IMG/VR virus record: IMGVR_UViG_3300042261_002391
Location: 24,469-88,468 of that record
DNA from: a virus
Reading direction: 5' to 3' (one strand)
Length of the DNA stretch: 64,000 nucleotides
The notes beneath the pieces are model-generated. The model saw only the letters and a program-made list of their open reading frames with translations, was not told the origin of the DNA and did no database searches. Below are positions 9,734-62,995 of this stretch, piece after piece; positions within the stretch are counted from its first letter, which is position 1, and each line of letters opens with the position of its first letter. The position numbers and the translations under genes are program-made.

Positions 9734-10229
9734 AAACTAATTCCATTAAAAAGCTAGTCACCTGACTAGCTTTTTTTATTGACTATAATCTTATTAAGAA
9801 TCATTTTAAATAAGCATCAAACATGAAAATAACAGCCAAAATATTTGCATATATCAATTTCAATTTATTGCCAGTTTTTAGGCGTTTTAAAGCACTCACC
9901 TTTCAACCGGATGCCTTAATCAGATTAGAAAAGATAATAAATTGCTGGGCAGATAAACCCTACCCACAGGCGTATCCCACCCTCCCCGATACCCCCCAAG
10001 ACCCCCCCTTTTCACGTCCGGGGTGCAGCGTCCATGTCCCCTCATAGTTAAAAAAATTCTCTAAAAAAATTTTTAAAAATCCTAAATCATTTGCCTGATT
10101 TCCTGATACTTACGCCATTCTATTAATTTTCACGACTAAAAAATTTTCAAAAAAAATTTGTGTGTGGCTTGTGATAATAATCTTGAAGATATTAAACGTC
10201 ATATTAAAAATCTCACAAGTCATTAACGT

Positions 10230-25885: not shown

Positions 25886-25972
25886 AACTTTTAGAGTTTA
25901 ATTATAAATACTATTGAATTGCAAATGTAATGAATAATTTTTAATATACAAGCAATTTCAAATAAATTTTTG

Positions 25973-26046
25973 AGATTCTAGTGGGATTCGAACCCACGAT
26001 TTTCAAGTTTTAGAGACCTGTGCAATAACCACTCTGCCATAGAACC
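25973..26046 (-). tRNA. amber suppressor tRNA (CTA anticodon)
   Basis: GGTTCTA/TAGAATC acceptor, CAGGT-CTCTAAA-ACTTG anticodon arm, U73. Confidence 0.92.
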
Positions 26047-27019: not shown

Positions 27020-27037
27020 GTTGAGTAAATTTTTTTG

Positions 27038-27123
27038 TAGCGGATACAGGATTCGAACCTGTGACTCCTTTTGGGAGTTCTGGCTTATGAGACCAGCGAG
27101 ATAGTCCACTTCTCTAATCCACA
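27038..27123 (-). tRNA. tRNA-Met(CAT), initiator-like, with long variable arm
   Basis: 1:72 mismatch, loop CTCATAA, extra arm ACTCC-CAAAA-GGAGT. Confidence 0.85.
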
Positions 27124-29227: not shown

Positions 29228-29303
29228 AACGTCTGGAGGGATTCGAACCCTCATGTATCCAATTACACTTCTCTACGTTCGTAGCGTAGCGTGATACAGA
29301 CGC
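29228..29303 (-). tRNA. tRNA-Arg(ACG) with rearranged D-arm
   Basis: Good acceptor, anticodon and T arms; D-loop-like AATTGGATA lies 3' of the anticodon arm. Confidence 0.8.
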
Positions 29304-35697: not shown

Positions 35698-35707
35698 ATT
35701 ATTATCG

Positions 35708-35788
35708 TAGTGATGGTGGGATTCGAACCCACATTACCTTACGGTACACCTTATCAGGGTGCTGCCTTAACCAATCGACCACATCACT
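35708..35788 (-). tRNA. tRNA-Ile(GAT) with long variable arm
   Basis: Loop CTGATAA; extra arm ACC-GTAA-GGT. Confidence 0.88.
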
Positions 35789-48836: not shown

Positions 48837-48910
48837 TACTCCCGATGGGACTTGAACCCATAGTCTCGCACTTTAAAAGAGTGGGGTTTTACCAATTAAA
48901 CTACGGAAGT
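48837..48910 (-). tRNA. tRNA-Lys(TTT)
   Basis: Loop CTTTTAA. Confidence 0.9.
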
Positions 48911-48946: not shown

Positions 48947-49028
48947 TAGGAATGGTAGGATTCGAACCTACTAGACCGAAGTACTTGATTTACAGTCAAG
49001 CCTAACCCTCCAACGTTAGCGCATTCCC
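48947..49028 (-). tRNA. tRNA-Tyr(GTA)
   Basis: CTTGA-CTGTAAA-TCAAG, variable arm, A73. Confidence 0.92.
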
Positions 49029-49038
49029 ATTTATATTG

Positions 49039-49130
49039 TGGAACATGTAGGATTCGAACCTACTTACTGCGACCAATACGACTATTTAGCGATGCAGGTT
49101 GGATTTACAGTCCAGTGCCGTTAATGTTCC
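49039..49130 (-). tRNA. tRNA-Tyr(GTA) with rearranged D-arm
   Basis: Perfect acceptor and T arms; only 8 nt between acceptor and anticodon stems; GTCGT-ATTGGT in the variable region. Confidence 0.8.
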
Positions 49131-49227: not shown

Positions 49228-49255
49228 AAAAAACCCGAATCTTTCGAATCGGGTT
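49228..49255 (-). terminator. attenuator terminator of Lys/Tyr tRNA operon
   Basis: AACCCGATTC-GAAA-GATTCGGGTT + U tract. Confidence 0.9.
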
Positions 49256-49286
49256 CTTTTAATTTCTGGCTTTGCAAAATCATTGC

Positions 49287-49511: not shown

Positions 49512-50321
49512 TTATTCAACTAATCTAATTGTCCAATAGTCGGCAGATAACCCTGATTGTTCGACATATCCGTAAGGCAAATAGAAATATCCATTAATTC
49601 CCCATTTTTCACCCCAACTATTACGAACAATTAATGCTTGTTTATTATCGTCATAACCAACAGCAAGTACGGCATGTCCACCCATTGATTGTTCTCCGGG
49701 TTTAGGCATTGATGCAATTCCTGTACGAGCAACTTCATCACTCATAAACGATTCATATATTGTAAACCCAAATGCTACGGGATATCCATCAGATAAGCAA
49801 TGTTTTACTTCATATAACGTATGTGGACTAATTCTTAAATATTCCAGTACTTGATTATCTAACGCAACACGATAACAATCATTATTCGGTTTTGTTTTAA
49901 ATTTCCAAATATCATATTTCCACATTGATTCTGAACAAACACCGTCTTTGACCATTGTTTTAATACCATCACGAATCATCGCACCAGCATCTTCATTAAT
50001 AGTTCCCTCCAATGCTCTTTCATTATAATAAATGAACAATCTTGAAGGAATAAAATCTTGTTTCTTTTGTTTAATTTGTTCAAATTGAAATGCAGCACCT
50101 AAAGCATTTGCAGTACAACTACCTAATTCGCCTTGATTATAGACTGGTGGACAATATTGTCTTAAATCTACTATTGATGGTAGTTCATGAGGAGCAGTAA
50201 TTTTAAATTTACGGTCACGTGGGTCTACATTATCTTTTACCCAACCAAATTTAAATGTTTGTTTTTCGGGTTTACCGAAAATTTTCTTGAAGAATTTTTT
50301 AATTAATGTTAATAGTTTCAT
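49512..50321 (-). CDS. papain-family (C1A) cysteine peptidase
   Basis: QGELGSCTANA, GGHAVLAVGY, RNSWG. Confidence 0.95.
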   Translation of the reverse strand: MKLLTLIKKFFKKIFGKPEKQTFKFGWVKDNVDPRDRKFKITAPHELPSIVDLRQYCPPVYNQGELGSCTANALGAAFQFEQIKQKKQDFIPSRLFIYYNERALEGTINEDAGAMIRDGIKTMVKDGVCSESMWKYDIWKFKTKPNNDCYRVALDNQVLEYLRISPHTLYEVKHCLSDGYPVAFGFTIYESFMSDEVARTGIASMPKPGEQSMGGHAVLAVGYDDNKQALIVRNSWGEKWGINGYFYLPYGYVEQSGLSADYWTIRLVE

Positions 50322-50384: not shown

Positions 50385-51515
50385 TTATCCTACTTCATAA
50401 CCATCCTTAAACGGTTTTGAATATGTTGGTCTGATTTTCTTCCATATAATTTCATCATATGGTCTTTTATCAAACATTTTAAATAAGATGCTGCAATATT
50501 CAGTTTTAAGTGCTTCTGCTGCAAATTCTTTACGTGTTTTAATATCATTGATATGATAAATACGAATGAATTCTTTCAACGATAGTCTTTCAATTGAGTT
50601 ATATTCGTTTTCCAACGAAGCAACTGTTTTTTTCAACCAATCATAAAATTCGTCAGGTACTCGGTCAAGTAACGAATCAAAATCATAATTATTCATCAAA
50701 TGTTCCCATACCGTAATATTTGAAACATTCGTTAAAATACCATGTAATCTGATATATTCACTAAATTTTACTTTAACACGAAAACCGTCAGAAAACCTAA
50801 CAACAAAACCTTCACGATTTTCTTCTTCAAGTGCCTTCAAATCATTAAGATTCTTTATGTTTTTTAATTCATATTTCTTAACAACAGTAAAATACTTAGA
50901 ATACATCGCAATCAATTTATCGTATGGTAATTCTTCCCCGGTTGAAGTTATAATGTTACCTAGTAACACTAATTCCCTTCTATCACCATAATCGACAACA
51001 ATACGATTTTCTTTATATAAAATTTCGAACAAATATGTGCAATTACGATTCAATGCATCAAAAGTATTATTTTCAATCATTTTACGTGCTTCAATAACTT
51101 GCTCGGAAATAAATGAACCACGACTAGCAACAATCCATTGCATTATTTCTTCATAAAAGAAAACTATAATCAATGACCCATCCATTTTTTCAAAAATTTC
51201 AAATTCTTTAGACATATCAATTTCTGATGGGTCGTGTTCTTCAAAATTCTTGAATTTCATGAATGGTCTAGCAAGAATATTACCATTGCCATCAACAACC
51301 ATTCCACGACAAGATAATGTGTATACATCCCAAAATCTTTTAGATTGTACTTTAGGTGAATAATTCAAAATCCAAATATCATATTCTGGATGCTTATTGG
51401 CAACAATTAATCCATTGTCAATATATTCCCGCAATAATGCCCAATCAACTTCTTCCAACATTTCCATTCTATGTCCCCCTCTTTTTAGGATATGAGTATA
51501 ACTTGTTTCTTTCAA
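50385..51515 (-). CDS. T4 Rnl1-family RNA ligase
   Basis: EKMDGSL, SRGSF, FE, EGFVV, RVKVK (true start probably the internal MEMLEE). Confidence 0.9.
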   Translation of the reverse strand: MKETSYTHILKRGGHRMEMLEEVDWALLREYIDNGLIVANKHPEYDIWILNYSPKVQSKRFWDVYTLSCRGMVVDGNGNILARPFMKFKNFEEHDPSEIDMSKEFEIFEKMDGSLIIVFFYEEIMQWIVASRGSFISEQVIEARKMIENNTFDALNRNCTYLFEILYKENRIVVDYGDRRELVLLGNIITSTGEELPYDKLIAMYSKYFTVVKKYELKNIKNLNDLKALEEENREGFVVRFSDGFRVKVKFSEYIRLHGILTNVSNITVWEHLMNNYDFDSLLDRVPDEFYDWLKKTVASLENEYNSIERLSLKEFIRIYHINDIKTRKEFAAEALKTEYCSILFKMFDKRPYDEIIWKKIRPTYSKPFKDGYEVG

Positions 51516-52332
51516 GAAATTCTCGTCTCAATTGTTTTGTTTCATATTTATTCTCGCCTAAAACATATACGTATTTATGCTTTTTACCGATTTCCCGGGA
51601 TTCGCACGATAACATATAATCTTTAGATAATTTTTTTATCCTTTTAGCAATATCTTCAGGCATTTGGTCAAACTTTACACTATCACCTTTCTGCCAATCA
51701 AGTTGCCAAATAATTCCATCATTTTTTGCAACTTTTCTATATACTGAACGTGCTCTAAAATATCTGTCTGATACCCATCTACCTGATTCAATTCTATATT
51801 GTTTGCTTGCACCAGATTTCTTACCAATATAATAAAAATTACATGCTTGATAAAGAGTACCTAATTCATTTGCCTCCACATCAGAATATGCGACAAATAC
51901 TCTAAATCTGGTGTTTTTAACCATCCAATTAATAGCGTACATTATTAATGAACTTCCCAAATTTTTGGGTGACCAACTAATGCATGCACCTCTGCTAATT
52001 AATCTTTCAATCTTTTTGGTCTTTTCTCCAACTAATTTCGAAAAAACACTAGGCATATCCATTATCACAACACCTGCTAATATACCATTATATCTTGCAG
52101 TAAAAATGTGCGTTGGATATAAACTCATTCTGCCAAGCCATTCATGTCGTTCGATAAATTCTTTTACTTCATCGTAACACGCATCCTTTTCTTCGAATTG
52201 TATTGTAAAATCAGAAACTCTTAAATCCTTAACATCGTCTTCAGATAAATTTGCTCTTTTTAAATCTTCATCCCGGTTAGCAACCCTTATTTCATATTGC
52301 CAACAATTTTCAGTGTTTGTTTTTATTCCCAT
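51469..52332 (-). CDS. Mom-like GNAT DNA-modification protein
   Basis: ISRGACISWSPKNLGS...VAYSD...GTLYQACNF. Confidence 0.75.
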   Translation of the reverse strand: MGIKTNTENCWQYEIRVANRDEDLKRANLSEDDVKDLRVSDFTIQFEEKDACYDEVKEFIERHEWLGRMSLYPTHIFTARYNGILAGVVIMDMPSVFSKLVGEKTKKIERLISRGACISWSPKNLGSSLIMYAINWMVKNTRFRVFVAYSDVEANELGTLYQACNFYYIGKKSGASKQYRIESGRWVSDRYFRARSVYRKVAKNDGIIWQLDWQKGDSVKFDQMPEDIAKRIKKLSKDYMLSCESREIGKKHKYVYVLGENKYETKQLRREFLERNKLYSYPKKRGT

Positions 52333-59520: not shown

Positions 59521-59619
59521 ATTTTTGTATGAAAATTCCGTCAATAACTCTCATTTTCGACGTTAGTGTTGGTTATTTCCGACAAAACAATATCTTTTGT
59601 TGATAATAAGCAACATCAG

Positions 59620-59709
59620 TACAGCGTAGGGGATTCGAACCCCTGATACCTCTATTAGAAGTATATCAGATTGAAAGTCTGACAACATAAGCCACTCGTT
59701 CAACGCTGC
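59620..59709 (-). tRNA. tRNA-Glu(TTC) with long variable arm
   Basis: TCAGA-CTTTCAA-TCTGA; extra arm ATACTTCT-AAT-AGAGGTAT. Confidence 0.85.
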
Positions 59710-62857: not shown

Positions 62858-62912
62858 CGCTCTTTTTTCTTGCAAAGATAAATAATAATTTCAATCACAC
62901 AAGTATTTTTTG

Positions 62913-62995
62913 TAGTCCCCGCAGGATTCGAACCTGCAAACCCGTTAGAGTGTCGGCTTCAAAGACCGATGCATTAACCATTCTGCCAGAGGACT
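62913..62995 (-). tRNA. tRNA-Gln(TTG) with long variable arm
   Basis: TCGGT-CTTTGAA-GCCGA; extra arm ACTC-TAAC-GGGT. Confidence 0.83.

What the first reader, a model, noticed from the sequence alone, without database searches (positions are those of the whole stretch)
49039..49130. Second D-arm-rewired tRNA (Tyr) shows the same topology
GGAACAT TA ACGGC A CTGGA-CTGTAAA-TCCAA C CTGC ATCGCTAAATA GTCGT ATTGGTC GCAG TAA GTAGG-TTCGAAT-CCTAC ATGTTCC A. ACGGC pairs 5/5 with GTCGT in the variable region, which is followed by a D-loop-like ATTGGT; CTGC/GCAG would make this a pseudoknot. Two unrelated tRNAs with the same rearrangement point to an alternative tRNA architecture that standard scanners would probably miss, possibly resistant to host tRNases (inference).
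Basis: seen in the sequence. Interest (0 to 1): 0.85.

Follow-up and report, generated by a model that had tools for sequence, protein, structure and literature searches.

The report
Rewired, pseudoknotted phage tyrosine tRNA
This 92-base phage gene is an intact tyrosine tRNA that is not a cloverleaf: half of its D-arm sits behind the anticodon arm and pairs back as a pseudoknot, a design kept in over 150 distinct phage sequences, skipped by ARAGORN and by GenBank annotation, and absent from every paper I could search.

Summary
On the minus strand, 49130 to 49039 has a 7-bp acceptor stem, a Tyr (GUA) anticodon arm and a standard T-arm. Only 5 nt (ACGGC) stand where the D-arm should be. Its complement GUCGU, followed by an A..GG D-loop-like stretch, lies inside a CUGC/GCAG helix after the anticodon arm.

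One 5/5 match in a 32-nt region is not significant alone (about 0.2 by chance). Comparison settles it. In a census blind to the partner strand, both free positions paired in 66 of 66 distinct sequences with 2 and 6 pair types (1 of 20,000 shuffles as good). The second helix formed fully in 62 of 66.

A shorter Arg/Ile version, including this window's Arg(ACG) at 29228-29303, shows 100% pairing with all four Watson-Crick types at two positions in 87 sequences. Members fill isoacceptor slots in phage tRNA arrays, keep isotype-correct discriminators and often encode CCA.

Cultured carriers include crAss001, Microbacterium phage Zooman and Agrobacterium phage Atu_ph04, never annotated. ARAGORN misses 110 of 111; Rfam scores them near threshold.

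This scan met the class before on other DNA (at least eight follow-ups). Charging, use in translation and nuclease resistance remain untested.

The parts
49039..49130 (-). Whole gene: 92-nt rewired tRNA-Tyr(GUA); no encoded CCA (discriminator A is followed by CAA)
   Evidence: Sequence read; Rfam RF00005 34.4 bits with the D-arm deleted; ARAGORN makes no call
49124..49130 (-). Acceptor stem, 5' strand (GGAACAU); pairs 7/7 with 49040-49046
   Evidence: acceptor pairs 100% paired with double changes at 6 of 7 pairs in alignment A1
49122..49123 (-). U8 A9
   Evidence: 'TA' here in all 157 distinct family members
49117..49121 (-). ACGGC: the strand that takes the place of D-stem positions about 21/22-25 and runs straight into position 26 and the anticodon stem
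   Evidence: Pairs with 49078-49082; 100% paired in 15, 16 and 66 sequences, with compensatory changes
49099..49115 (-). Anticodon arm: CUGGA / CUGUAAA / UCCAA; anticodon GUA at 49106-49108; C.A at the first stem pair
   Evidence: the same C.A occurs in 3 of 15 members
49094..49097 (-). CUGC: 5' strand of the second helix, at the place where a class II variable arm begins
   Evidence: Pairs with 49067-49070; 4/4 pairs in 62 of 66 members with CUGC/GCAG, CCGC/GCGG, CUCC/GGAG, CUGG/CCAG, CCCC/GGGG, GCCC/GGGC and CCUC/GAGG
49083..49093 (-). 11-nt A-rich linker (family consensus N-UUAACAAAU-N; this copy keeps only the AAAU part)
49078..49082 (-). GUCGU: relocated 5' strand of the D-stem (positions about 10-13)
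49071..49077 (-). AUUGGUC: relocated D-loop with the A14 and G18 G19 equivalents
   Evidence: A and GG invariant in A1; in the blind census every full partner strand (65/65) is followed by A and then GG 1-4 nt later
49067..49070 (-). GCAG: 3' strand of the second helix; crosses the D-type helix, giving the pseudoknot
49047..49063 (-). T-arm GUAGG / UUCGAAU / CCUAC, identical to the T-arm of the canonical Tyr gene next door
48947..49028 (-). Canonical class II tRNA-Tyr(GUA), 10 nt downstream in the same operon
   Evidence: ARAGORN; Rfam 38.7 bits
49142..49213 (-). tRNA-Lys(CUU), 11 nt upstream; first gene of the four-tRNA cluster Lys-Tyr(rewired)-Tyr-Lys
48837..48910 (-). tRNA-Lys(UUU), last gene of the cluster
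29228..29303 (-). Sister gene: rewired short-type tRNA-Arg(ACG), the only ACG-anticodon gene in the 88-kb contig; UCAC ... GUGU then AAUUGGAUAC
   Evidence: family statistics
50385..51515 (-). T4 Rnl1-type RNA ligase (tRNA-repair enzyme family); context only
   Evidence: PF09511 2.4e-19; phrog_562 9.2e-67

Best explanation
The gene encodes a working elongator tRNA-Tyr(GUA) of a conserved phage-borne class with a rewired D-domain. The piece that normally lies between positions 9 and 22 (the 5' strand of the D-stem plus the D-loop with A14, G18 and G19) has been moved into the loop of the variable arm. What remains before the anticodon stem (ACGGC, then A) corresponds to the 3' strand of the D-stem plus position 26. 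In the RNA, ACGGC pairs with GUCGU across the whole anticodon arm, rebuilding a D-type helix that can stack on the anticodon stem as in any tRNA. The relocated A..GG loop can then reach U8 and the unchanged UUCGAAU T-loop to form the elbow. CUGC/GCAG forms the base of the variable arm at its usual place and crosses the D-type helix, so the fold is a pseudoknot and not a cloverleaf. Shown here: the sequence, both helices by covariation, the family, its distribution, and tRNA-gene hallmarks. Inferred: the L-shape; co-transcription with the flanking Lys, Tyr and Lys genes (10-36 nt spacers); end processing and CCA addition by host enzymes; charging by host TyrRS (A73, GUA and the variable-arm base are kept); and use on the ribosome. 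Why the rewiring is kept is unknown. My leading guess (about 0.3) is escape from a host factor that reads the ordinary D-arm of particular tRNAs.
For: 1. Structure. The D-type helix is 100% paired in 15 sequences, with changes on both sides at 2 pairs. The second helix is 98% paired, also with changes on both sides at 2 pairs. Sliding partners by 1-3 columns gives about 43% pairing.
2. Census blind to the partner strand (metagenome scan). The two free pairs form in 66/66 sequences (GC 55, AU 11; GU 42, GC 10, UG 6, CG 5, UA 2, AU 1). Over 9 haplotypes 18/18 cells pair against a shuffled mean of 11.1, reached by 1 of 20,000 shuffles.
3. Short type, no pairing demanded. In 87 sequences two pairs are 100% paired with all four Watson-Crick types, plus a conserved U.U at the 13.22-like position.
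4. Gene hallmarks. U8 A9 is invariant in 157/157. The discriminator is A in 72/73 Tyr and 17/17 Ile and mixed in Arg. CCA is encoded in 22%, 43% and 12% of Tyr, Arg and Ile genes (chance 1.6%).
5. Slot filling. In loci with at least 5 ordinary tRNAs the rewired gene is the only one with its anticodon in 58 of 65 cases. It is the only Tyr gene in the 24-tRNA array of crAss001, and a rewired Arg(UCU) is the only tRNA found in the 2.5 kb fetched around it in Limnohabitans phage DC31 and in Agrobacterium phage Atu_ph04.
6. In this window it sits in a tight four-tRNA cluster.
7. No dedicated partner protein recurs nearby, only HNH- and HTH-type ORFs, which fits reliance on host enzymes.
Against: Nobody has seen the RNA, its ends, its charging or its use. 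No RNA run was available here. Here and in 3 other of 17 Tyr loci a canonical Tyr gene is also present, so in this phage the rewired copy is not strictly needed for decoding. No 15-48 tertiary covariation could be detected. This copy departs from the family's linker consensus and has the shortest D-like loop in the alignment. Nearest-neighbour folding gives only z = -1.67, though it cannot score pseudoknots. Part of my sampling was anchored on family motifs, and sequences in a family are related, so counts of cells overstate the number of independent events. A later check recorded in the scan's notes priced 'works as is in translation' at 34/100.
Confidence: 0.7

Rival explanations
1. It folds as described but is not a decoder. 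It would be a tRNA-Tyr look-alike that acts as a decoy or sponge for a host tRNA-directed defence nuclease or sensor, or as another tRNA-shaped regulator, while the canonical neighbour does the decoding.
For: A canonical Tyr gene lies 10 nt away. A tRNA-repair-type RNA ligase is 1.25 kb away. Host tRNA-Tyr depletion is a documented defence that phage tRNA-Tyr counteracts (PMC11555353).
Against: In most arrays the rewired gene is the only one for its anticodon (58 of 65; crAss001). A decoy needs no isotype-correct discriminator, no intact 7-nt anticodon loop with U33 and A37, and no encoded CCA, yet all are kept. The design also serves Arg and Ile isoacceptors for rare codons, which are typical phage supply tRNAs.
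Confidence: 0.15
2. The mature molecule differs from the gene. The long insert after the anticodon arm is removed or cut, leaving a D-armless mini-tRNA or a two-piece tRNA, and the helices matter only for folding or processing of the precursor.
For: The insert is bracketed by a helix (CUGC/GCAG) that could in principle mark a processing site. D-armless tRNAs do work in mitochondria (PMC4394434).
Against: No such processing pathway is known in bacteria (my knowledge, not tested). The insert carries the invariant A..GG and the partner strand under selection. The short Arg/Ile type has no bracketing helix, yet has the same relocated strand and loop.
Confidence: 0.08
3. It is a decaying duplicate of the neighbouring tRNA-Tyr, and the complementarity is chance.
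For: One 5/5 match with G.U allowed in a 32-nt region has about a 0.2 chance. The low Rfam score (34.4 bits) and the ARAGORN miss are also what a pseudogene would give.
Against: The architecture recurs in more than 150 distinct sequences from many habitats and host phyla, with compensatory changes in every helix. The reversed-sequence controls gave 1 and 0 hits.
Confidence: 0.02

Closest known systems
Canonical bacterial and phage class II tRNA-Tyr(GUA) (Rfam RF00005), for example the gene at 48947-49028 of this window
   Same: 7-bp acceptor stem, A73, GUA in a CUGUAAA loop, 5-bp T-stem with a UUCGAAU loop (17 nt identical to the neighbour), and a helix starting one base after the anticodon stem where the long variable arm begins.
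   Different: There is no D hairpin between positions 9 and 26. The variable-arm loop is enlarged to 23 nt and carries the D-stem 5' strand and the D-loop. The D-type helix encloses the anticodon arm and crosses the variable-arm helix as a pseudoknot.
D-armless mitochondrial tRNA-Ser(GCU/AGY) of mammals and D-armless nematode mt-tRNAs (PMC4394434, PMC7609411)
   Same: No D hairpin, with a short connector between the acceptor and anticodon stems. They show that ribosomes can use tRNAs without a cloverleaf D-arm, and activity is reported for the mammalian case.
   Different: According to the review, those tRNAs have a simplified core with alternative tertiary contacts, and atypical mt-tRNAs partly or wholly lose the G18 G19 / U55 C56 residues behind the D/T-loop contact. 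The phage class keeps U8, A14, G18 G19 and a standard T-loop and rebuilds the D-stem from a relocated strand. It occurs in viruses of bacteria, not organelles. That the mt forms lengthen the anticodon stem in place of the D-stem is my recollection (Steinberg et al. 1994) and was not checked here.
allo-tRNAs and other 8/4 or 9/3 tRNAs from metagenomes and phages (Mukai et al. 2017, PMC5389517)
   Same: Non-canonical tRNAs found in metagenomes, some phage-borne, missed or mis-scored by standard tools (abstract seen).
   Different: Those change the acceptor/T-stem lengths but remain cloverleaves with a normal D hairpin. Here the stems are 7/5 and it is the connectivity of the D-arm that changes.
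Circularly permuted and split tRNA genes (Cyanidioschyzon merolae, Nanoarchaeum)
   Same: The order of tRNA segments in the gene differs from the textbook order.
   Different: In those cases processing restores an ordinary cloverleaf tRNA (my knowledge, not checked here). Here the acceptor strands are in normal order, no bulge-helix-bulge motif is evident, and the covariation argues that the rearranged order is the functional one.
Tyrosine-accepting tRNA-like structures of plant RNA viruses (PMC10870377)
   Same: Virus-encoded, pseudoknot-containing, non-cloverleaf RNAs that mimic tRNA-Tyr (abstract seen).
   Different: Those are 3'-terminal genome elements of eukaryotic RNA viruses and do not decode. 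This is a discrete gene in a DNA phage tRNA operon with a full anticodon arm.

Membership tests
tRNA (Rfam RF00005, cloverleaf) | 7-bp acceptor stem plus discriminator base | tested here: met
   GGAACAU/AUGUUCC pairs 7/7, then A; covaries across the family
tRNA (Rfam RF00005, cloverleaf) | 5-bp anticodon stem with a 7-nt loop, U33 and a purine at 37 | tested here: met
   CUGGA / CUGUAAA / UCCAA; the first pair is C.A, as in 3 of 15 members
tRNA (Rfam RF00005, cloverleaf) | 5-bp T-stem with a UUCRANY loop | tested here: met
   GUAGG / UUCGAAU / CCUAC
tRNA (Rfam RF00005, cloverleaf) | D hairpin (3-4 bp stem, 7-11 nt loop) between positions 9 and 26, giving a four-way junction | tested here: not met
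   Only 5 nt lie there. Infernal deletes 15 model positions and inserts 32 nt after the anticodon arm
tRNA (Rfam RF00005, cloverleaf) | Score at or above the curated gathering threshold | tested here: met
   34.4 bits against 29; ordinary neighbours score 50-74
Bacterial-type tRNA-Tyr identity | Anticodon GUA, discriminator A73, long variable arm | tested here: met
   GUA and A73 are present (A in 72 of 73 family members). A 4-bp helix stands at the variable-arm position, but its loop is engaged in the pseudoknot. That these are the identity elements is from my knowledge
Bacterial-type tRNA-Tyr identity | Tyrosylation by TyrRS and delivery by EF-Tu | not testable with these tools
   No biochemical data; no RNA run available
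Rewired (pseudoknotted) phage tRNA class, Tyr type (unpublished; defined by this scan) | U8 A9, then a 5-nt strand AC-N-N-C that pairs with N-N-N-G-U inside the post-anticodon region | tested here: met
   ACGGC/GUCGU 5/5 here; 66/66 in the blind census
Rewired (pseudoknotted) phage tRNA class, Tyr type (unpublished; defined by this scan) | Partner strand followed directly by A and then GG a few bases later (relocated D-loop) | tested here: met
   AUUGG here; 65/65; A and GG invariant in A1
Rewired (pseudoknotted) phage tRNA class, Tyr type (unpublished; defined by this scan) | 4-bp second helix starting 1 nt after the anticodon stem and ending 3 nt (U-A-R) before the T-stem, crossing the first helix | tested here: met
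   CUGC/GCAG then UAA here; 62/66 with 4/4 pairs
Rewired (pseudoknotted) phage tRNA class, Tyr type (unpublished; defined by this scan) | A-rich linker of about 11 nt, consensus N-UUAACAAAU-N | tested here: inconclusive
   The length (11 nt) and AAAU are kept, but the UAAC part is replaced by CGCU in this copy
D-armless mitochondrial tRNA | Loss of the D-arm together with loss or weakening of the G18 G19 / T-loop elbow contacts | tested here: not met
   The D hairpin is absent, but A14, GG and a canonical T-loop are conserved and the D-stem is rebuilt. The family feature is as described in PMC4394434
Permuted or split tRNA genes restored by processing | 3' half encoded upstream of the 5' half, or on separate genes, with bulge-helix-bulge processing sites | tested here: not met
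   The acceptor 5' and 3' strands are in normal order in one gene. No such motif was seen by eye and none was searched formally

The most novel reading that the evidence does not exclude
Phages of many bacterial phyla translate with a non-cloverleaf tRNA topology: a D-stem closed around the anticodon arm, pseudoknotted in the Tyr form. It is used as is by host synthetases, EF-Tu and ribosomes, and it is kept for Tyr, Arg and Ile because the rewired D-domain escapes a host tRNA-directed defence (a nuclease or sensor that reads the ordinary D-arm) while remaining fully functional.
Probability: 0.25. Interest if true: 0.92.

Novelty: new variant of a known kind. Interest (0 to 1): 0.82.

Why it matters
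The cloverleaf is treated as universal for tRNAs outside organelles. A conserved class that keeps the acceptor, anticodon and T arms but changes the connectivity of the D-arm would show that the translation machinery reads the three-dimensional shape and not the chain topology. It would give a natural new scaffold for engineered or orthogonal tRNAs.

It would also correct phage annotation. crAss001 and its relatives look as if they lack a Tyr tRNA, and several phages look tRNA-free, only because the gene is skipped. Codon-usage and tRNA-complement analyses of phages are therefore biased for Tyr, Arg and Ile.

If the rewiring turns out to be a counter-defence, it adds a structural route (besides anticodon-loop mutations and overexpression) by which phage tRNAs evade tRNA-targeting immunity. 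Because cultured phage-host pairs carry it, all of this is directly testable.

Tried and rejected
- **RNA evidence:** no RNA holder was listed for the window. Read laying could use only DNA contigs, so nothing can be said about expression, ends or CCA.
- **Levitt pair:** I tested covariation between position 15 and the base before the T-stem. There was none in the Tyr type, and in the short type both positions were fixed by my search pattern. Inconclusive.
- **Dedicated partner protein:** clustering 825 ORFs within 4 kb of rewired tRNAs in 100 loci gave only HNH- and HTH-type families, an RNR and small unknowns. No synthetase or modification enzyme recurs.
- **Pnkp partner for the RNA ligase:** PF08645 was not found in the 88-kb contig, but the contig is only about 27% of the genome, so this says little.
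- **Single-sequence folding:** MFE -22.7 kcal/mol, z = -1.67. It cannot represent the pseudoknot, and the inner hairpin it draws is not conserved. Each helix alone adds -2.2 or -3.6 kcal/mol to the frame.
- **Relaxed Tyr pattern:** mostly chance hits; only parser-confirmed ones were used.
- **Reversed-region control of the 'any 5/5 complement' test:** 31/68, too permissive. I replaced it with a position-fixed, haplotype-level shuffle.
- **Genome-contig scan:** 31 hits, about 6 real and all on MAG contigs. The three isolate-genome hits (Virgibacillus, Brevibacillus, Flavobacterium) show no tRNA around the motif and look like chance matches.
- **Other collections:** blastn found nothing in complete E. 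coli genomes or PLSDB plasmids.
- **Literature:** eight searches and five papers consulted gave no description of this architecture. Subscription-only literature is not covered.
- **Not run:** tRNAscan-SE (not available), a family covariance model, and any RNA 3D modelling.

Full report
**1. What is there**

The window is part of an 88.5-kb IMG/VR viral record. It has about 30% G+C, comes from a freshwater metagenome, and CheckV puts it at about 27% complete, so it is a fragment of a jumbo-sized phage. ARAGORN finds 39 tRNA genes in the window.

In order it has:
- a 7-bp acceptor stem, then U8 A9;
- five bases, ACGGC, then one base, A;
- a 5-bp anticodon stem with loop CUGUAAA (Tyr, GUA), then C;
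- CUGC, an 11-nt A-rich linker, GUCGU, AUUGGUC, GCAG, UAA;
- a standard T-arm, the acceptor 3' strand and discriminator A.

ARAGORN does not call it. The Rfam tRNA model does, at 34.4 bits against a threshold of 29, by deleting all 15 D-arm positions and inserting 32 nt after the anticodon arm. The gene lies in a tight minus-strand cluster: Lys(CUU), 11 nt, this gene, 10 nt, a canonical class II Tyr(GUA), 36 nt, Lys(UUU). A second gene, Arg(ACG) at 29303-29228, shows the same anomaly. My descriptor scan finds no other such gene in the 88-kb contig.

**2. Is it more than chance?**

Taken alone, no. A 5/5 complement with G.U allowed somewhere in a 32-nt region has about a 0.2 chance, and a reversed-region control was equally permissive (31 of 68). 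The case rests on relatives.

- Pattern scans of IMG/VR for the layout (anticodon loop, D-loop motif, then T-arm) returned many phage contigs. A parser for the full topology gave 115 hits in real sequence against 1 in reversed sequence, and later 84 against 0.
- For the Tyr type, a 15-sequence alignment (A1) was counted against the full structure with the two crossing helices. The D-type helix is 100% paired, with G-C to A-U at one pair and G.U, G-C and U.G at another. The second helix is 98% paired, with changes on both sides at two pairs. Sliding partners by 1-3 columns drops pairing to about 43%.
- My parser had demanded pairing, so I repeated the count without that demand. All five pairs form in 16 of 16 Tyr sequences.
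- I then spent the single metagenome scan on a pattern that fixes only the 5' side and leaves the partner strand free. Of 68 distinct sequences that frame as tRNAs, 66 have a single N-N-N-G-U site followed by A and GG. In these the two unconstrained pairs form in 66 of 66, with 2 and 6 pair types. At the level of 9 haplotypes, 18 of 18 cells pair against a shuffled mean of 11.1, and 1 of 20,000 shuffles is as good. The second helix forms 4/4 pairs in 62 of 66, with CUGC/GCAG, CCGC/GCGG, CUCC/GGAG, CUGG/CCAG, CCCC/GGGG, GCCC/GGGC and CCUC/GAGG.

This larger one is not.

**3. The short (class I) version**

In 87 distinct Arg and Ile sequences, with no pairing demanded, the four positions of the cross-arm helix behave as follows:
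- the elbow-side position is a conserved U.U (67 of 87), like the frequent 13.22 mismatch of ordinary tRNAs;
- the next two pairs are 100% paired and use C-G, G-C, A-U and U-A;
- the pair next to the anticodon stem forms in 79% (C-G 43, G-C 23), with an A.C sub-family (11).

The partner strand is followed by AAUUGGA. That includes the A20 known, from my memory, as an Arg identity element. Then come about 5 nt and the T-arm. This version has no second helix and is not pseudoknotted. It is a three-way junction in which the D-type helix is the base of the anticodon arm.

**4. Anatomy and likely mechanism**

Read against standard numbering, the strand left before the anticodon stem is the 3' strand of the D-stem (about 21/22-25) followed by position 26. 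The relocated strand is 10-13, followed by A14 ... G18 G19. In other words, segment 10-21 has been transposed into the variable region.

From textbook tRNA structure, the new joins are each between neighbours in the L-shape:
- the D-stem stacks on the anticodon stem;
- U8 pairs with A14 next to residue 21/22;
- the variable loop runs along the D-stem from the 10-25 end to residue 48.

So 9 to 22, 44/45 to 10, and 21 to 46-48 all join residues that already lie close together. This is my inference; no 3D modelling was possible.

In the Tyr form the CUGC/GCAG helix begins one base after the anticodon stem and ends three bases (U-A-R) before the T-stem. That is exactly where a class II variable arm sits. 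Its loop carries the linker, the relocated strand and the relocated D-loop. Each helix alone adds -2.2 or -3.6 kcal/mol to the acceptor, anticodon and T frame of this gene.

**5. Is it a working tRNA?** Indirect evidence says probably.

- U8 A9 is invariant in 157 of 157 distinct members. The discriminator is A in 72 of 73 Tyr and 17 of 17 Ile and is mixed in Arg, matching bacterial identity rules as I recall them. CCA is encoded right after the discriminator in 22% of Tyr, 43% of Arg and 12% of Ile genes, against 1.6% by chance.
- In loci with at least five ordinary tRNAs, the rewired gene is the only one with its anticodon in 58 of 65 cases.
It is unannotated and is the only Tyr gene in an array of 23 annotated tRNAs.
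- In Limnohabitans phage DC31 and Agrobacterium phage Atu_ph04 a rewired Arg(UCU) with encoded CCA is the only tRNA found in the 2.5 kb fetched around it.
- Microbacterium phage Zooman has a rewired Arg(ACG) in an unannotated gap between two annotated Arg genes.
- No dedicated enzyme recurs nearby, only HNH- and HTH-type ORFs.

Against: no RNA, charging or translation data exist. No RNA run was available. In this window a canonical Tyr gene stands next door. No 15-48 covariation was found.

**6. Distribution**

- 31 GenBank phage records carry the Tyr type, mostly cultured crAss001-like Bacteroides phages. None of the 30 listed annotates it.
- In Kehishuvirus 'tikkala', whose authors used tRNAscan-SE, the array is annotated except for a 114-nt hole holding this gene.
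- Cultured carriers infect Bacteroidota, Actinomycetota and Alpha-, Beta- and Gammaproteobacteria hosts.
- In 185,579 species genomes the short-type motif gave 31 hits, about 6 of them real and all on MAG contigs.
- Nothing was found in complete E. coli genomes or PLSDB plasmids.
- Only Tyr, Arg and Ile anticodons were seen. By-catch in 1.86 Mb of Tyr-selected DNA was Ile(UAU) x7, Ile(GAU) x3 and Arg(ACG) x1. I cannot explain this restriction.

**7. The nuclease-resistance idea**

It is not tested. Context in this window: a T4 Rnl1-type RNA ligase lies 1.25 kb from the gene on the same strand (PF09511 2.4e-19; phrog_562 9.2e-67), with no Pnkp found in this partial contig. Zooman has an RtcB-like ligase 2.4 kb from its rewired gene. 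Published work shows that retron-Eco7 depletes host tRNA-Tyr and that phage tRNA-Tyr rescues infection, there by abundance; no cleavage site was mapped (PMC11555353). These make an arms-race reading plausible, but nothing links it to the rewiring.

**8. Comparison with what is known**

Eight searches of open-access papers and preprints found no description. The 2020 review of non-canonical tRNAs never mentions phage or pseudoknot. The closest analogues:
- **D-armless mitochondrial tRNA-Ser:** it lacks the hairpin too, but per the review it has a simplified core with alternative tertiary contacts, and atypical mt-tRNAs partly or wholly lose the residues behind the D/T-loop contact.
- **allo-tRNAs:** they have altered stem lengths but are still cloverleaves.
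- **Permuted or split tRNA genes:** processing restores a cloverleaf.
- **Viral tyrosine-accepting tRNA-like structures:** they do not decode.

This scan has met the class on other DNA at least eight times. My results agree with those notes and add a larger blind census, the CCA and discriminator statistics, and more cultured carriers.

**9. Verdict**

The architecture is real, conserved and apparently undescribed. Function as a tyrosine-decoding tRNA is likely (about 0.7) but unproven. The selective reason for the rewiring is open.

Noticed in passing
window 29228-29303 (-): Rewired short-type tRNA-Arg(ACG), the only ACG-anticodon gene in the contig. It has the same transposition of the D-stem 5' strand and D-loop, without the second helix.
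   Followed up: yes
window 50385-51515 (-): T4 Rnl1-type RNA ligase (PF09511, phrog_562), separated from the Lys-Tyr-Tyr-Lys tRNA cluster by a papain-like peptidase ORF (49512-50321). A Mom-like ORF lies next to it (51469-52332). No Pnkp was found in this partial contig.
   Followed up: partly
all rewired tRNAs collected: Only Tyr, Arg and Ile anticodons occur among 157 distinct rewired tRNAs, although the same arrays hold ordinary tRNAs of every isotype. Unexplained.
   Followed up: partly
window 49047-49063 and 48955-48971 (-): The rewired and the canonical Tyr genes share an identical 17-nt T-arm while their acceptor stems differ. This could reflect gene conversion or a common constraint.
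   Followed up: no
L284:2387-2463 (+), GenBank PQ006092: Bajarodcaudo virus 1 has a rewired tRNA-Ile(UAU) about 30 nt upstream of its rewired tRNA-Tyr. Both are unannotated.
   Followed up: partly
L283:2494-2569 (+), GenBank OK040793, and 11 of 87 short-type members: A sub-family has an A.C opposition (or G.G in 5 of 87) at the helix pair next to the anticodon stem, leaving only two Watson-Crick pairs plus U.U. It includes Microbacterium phage Zooman.
   Followed up: no
window 25972-26046 (-): tRNA with anticodon CUA (called 'Pyl' by ARAGORN), an amber suppressor. It hints at TAG recoding in this phage.
   Followed up: no
window 27037-27123, 35707-35788, 59619-59709, 62912-62995 (-): Met, Ile, Glu and Gln tRNAs of 81-91 nt. 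These are class I isotypes with extra-long variable regions by ARAGORN and Rfam coordinates.
   Followed up: no
window 49228-49262: A G+C-rich hairpin followed by a U-run on the minus strand, just upstream of tRNA-Lys(CUU). Another first-stage note reads it as an attenuator. The simple terminator scan did not flag it.
   Followed up: no
L005:3421-3776 (-): A tmRNA gene (Rfam RF00023, 72.9 bits) in a 42-kb viral contig, about 600 nt from its rewired tRNA-Tyr.
   Followed up: no
L133:8761-8915 and 9763-9914 (+): tRNA-model matches of 152-155 nt in a 345-kb viral contig, possibly intron-containing tRNA genes.
   Followed up: no
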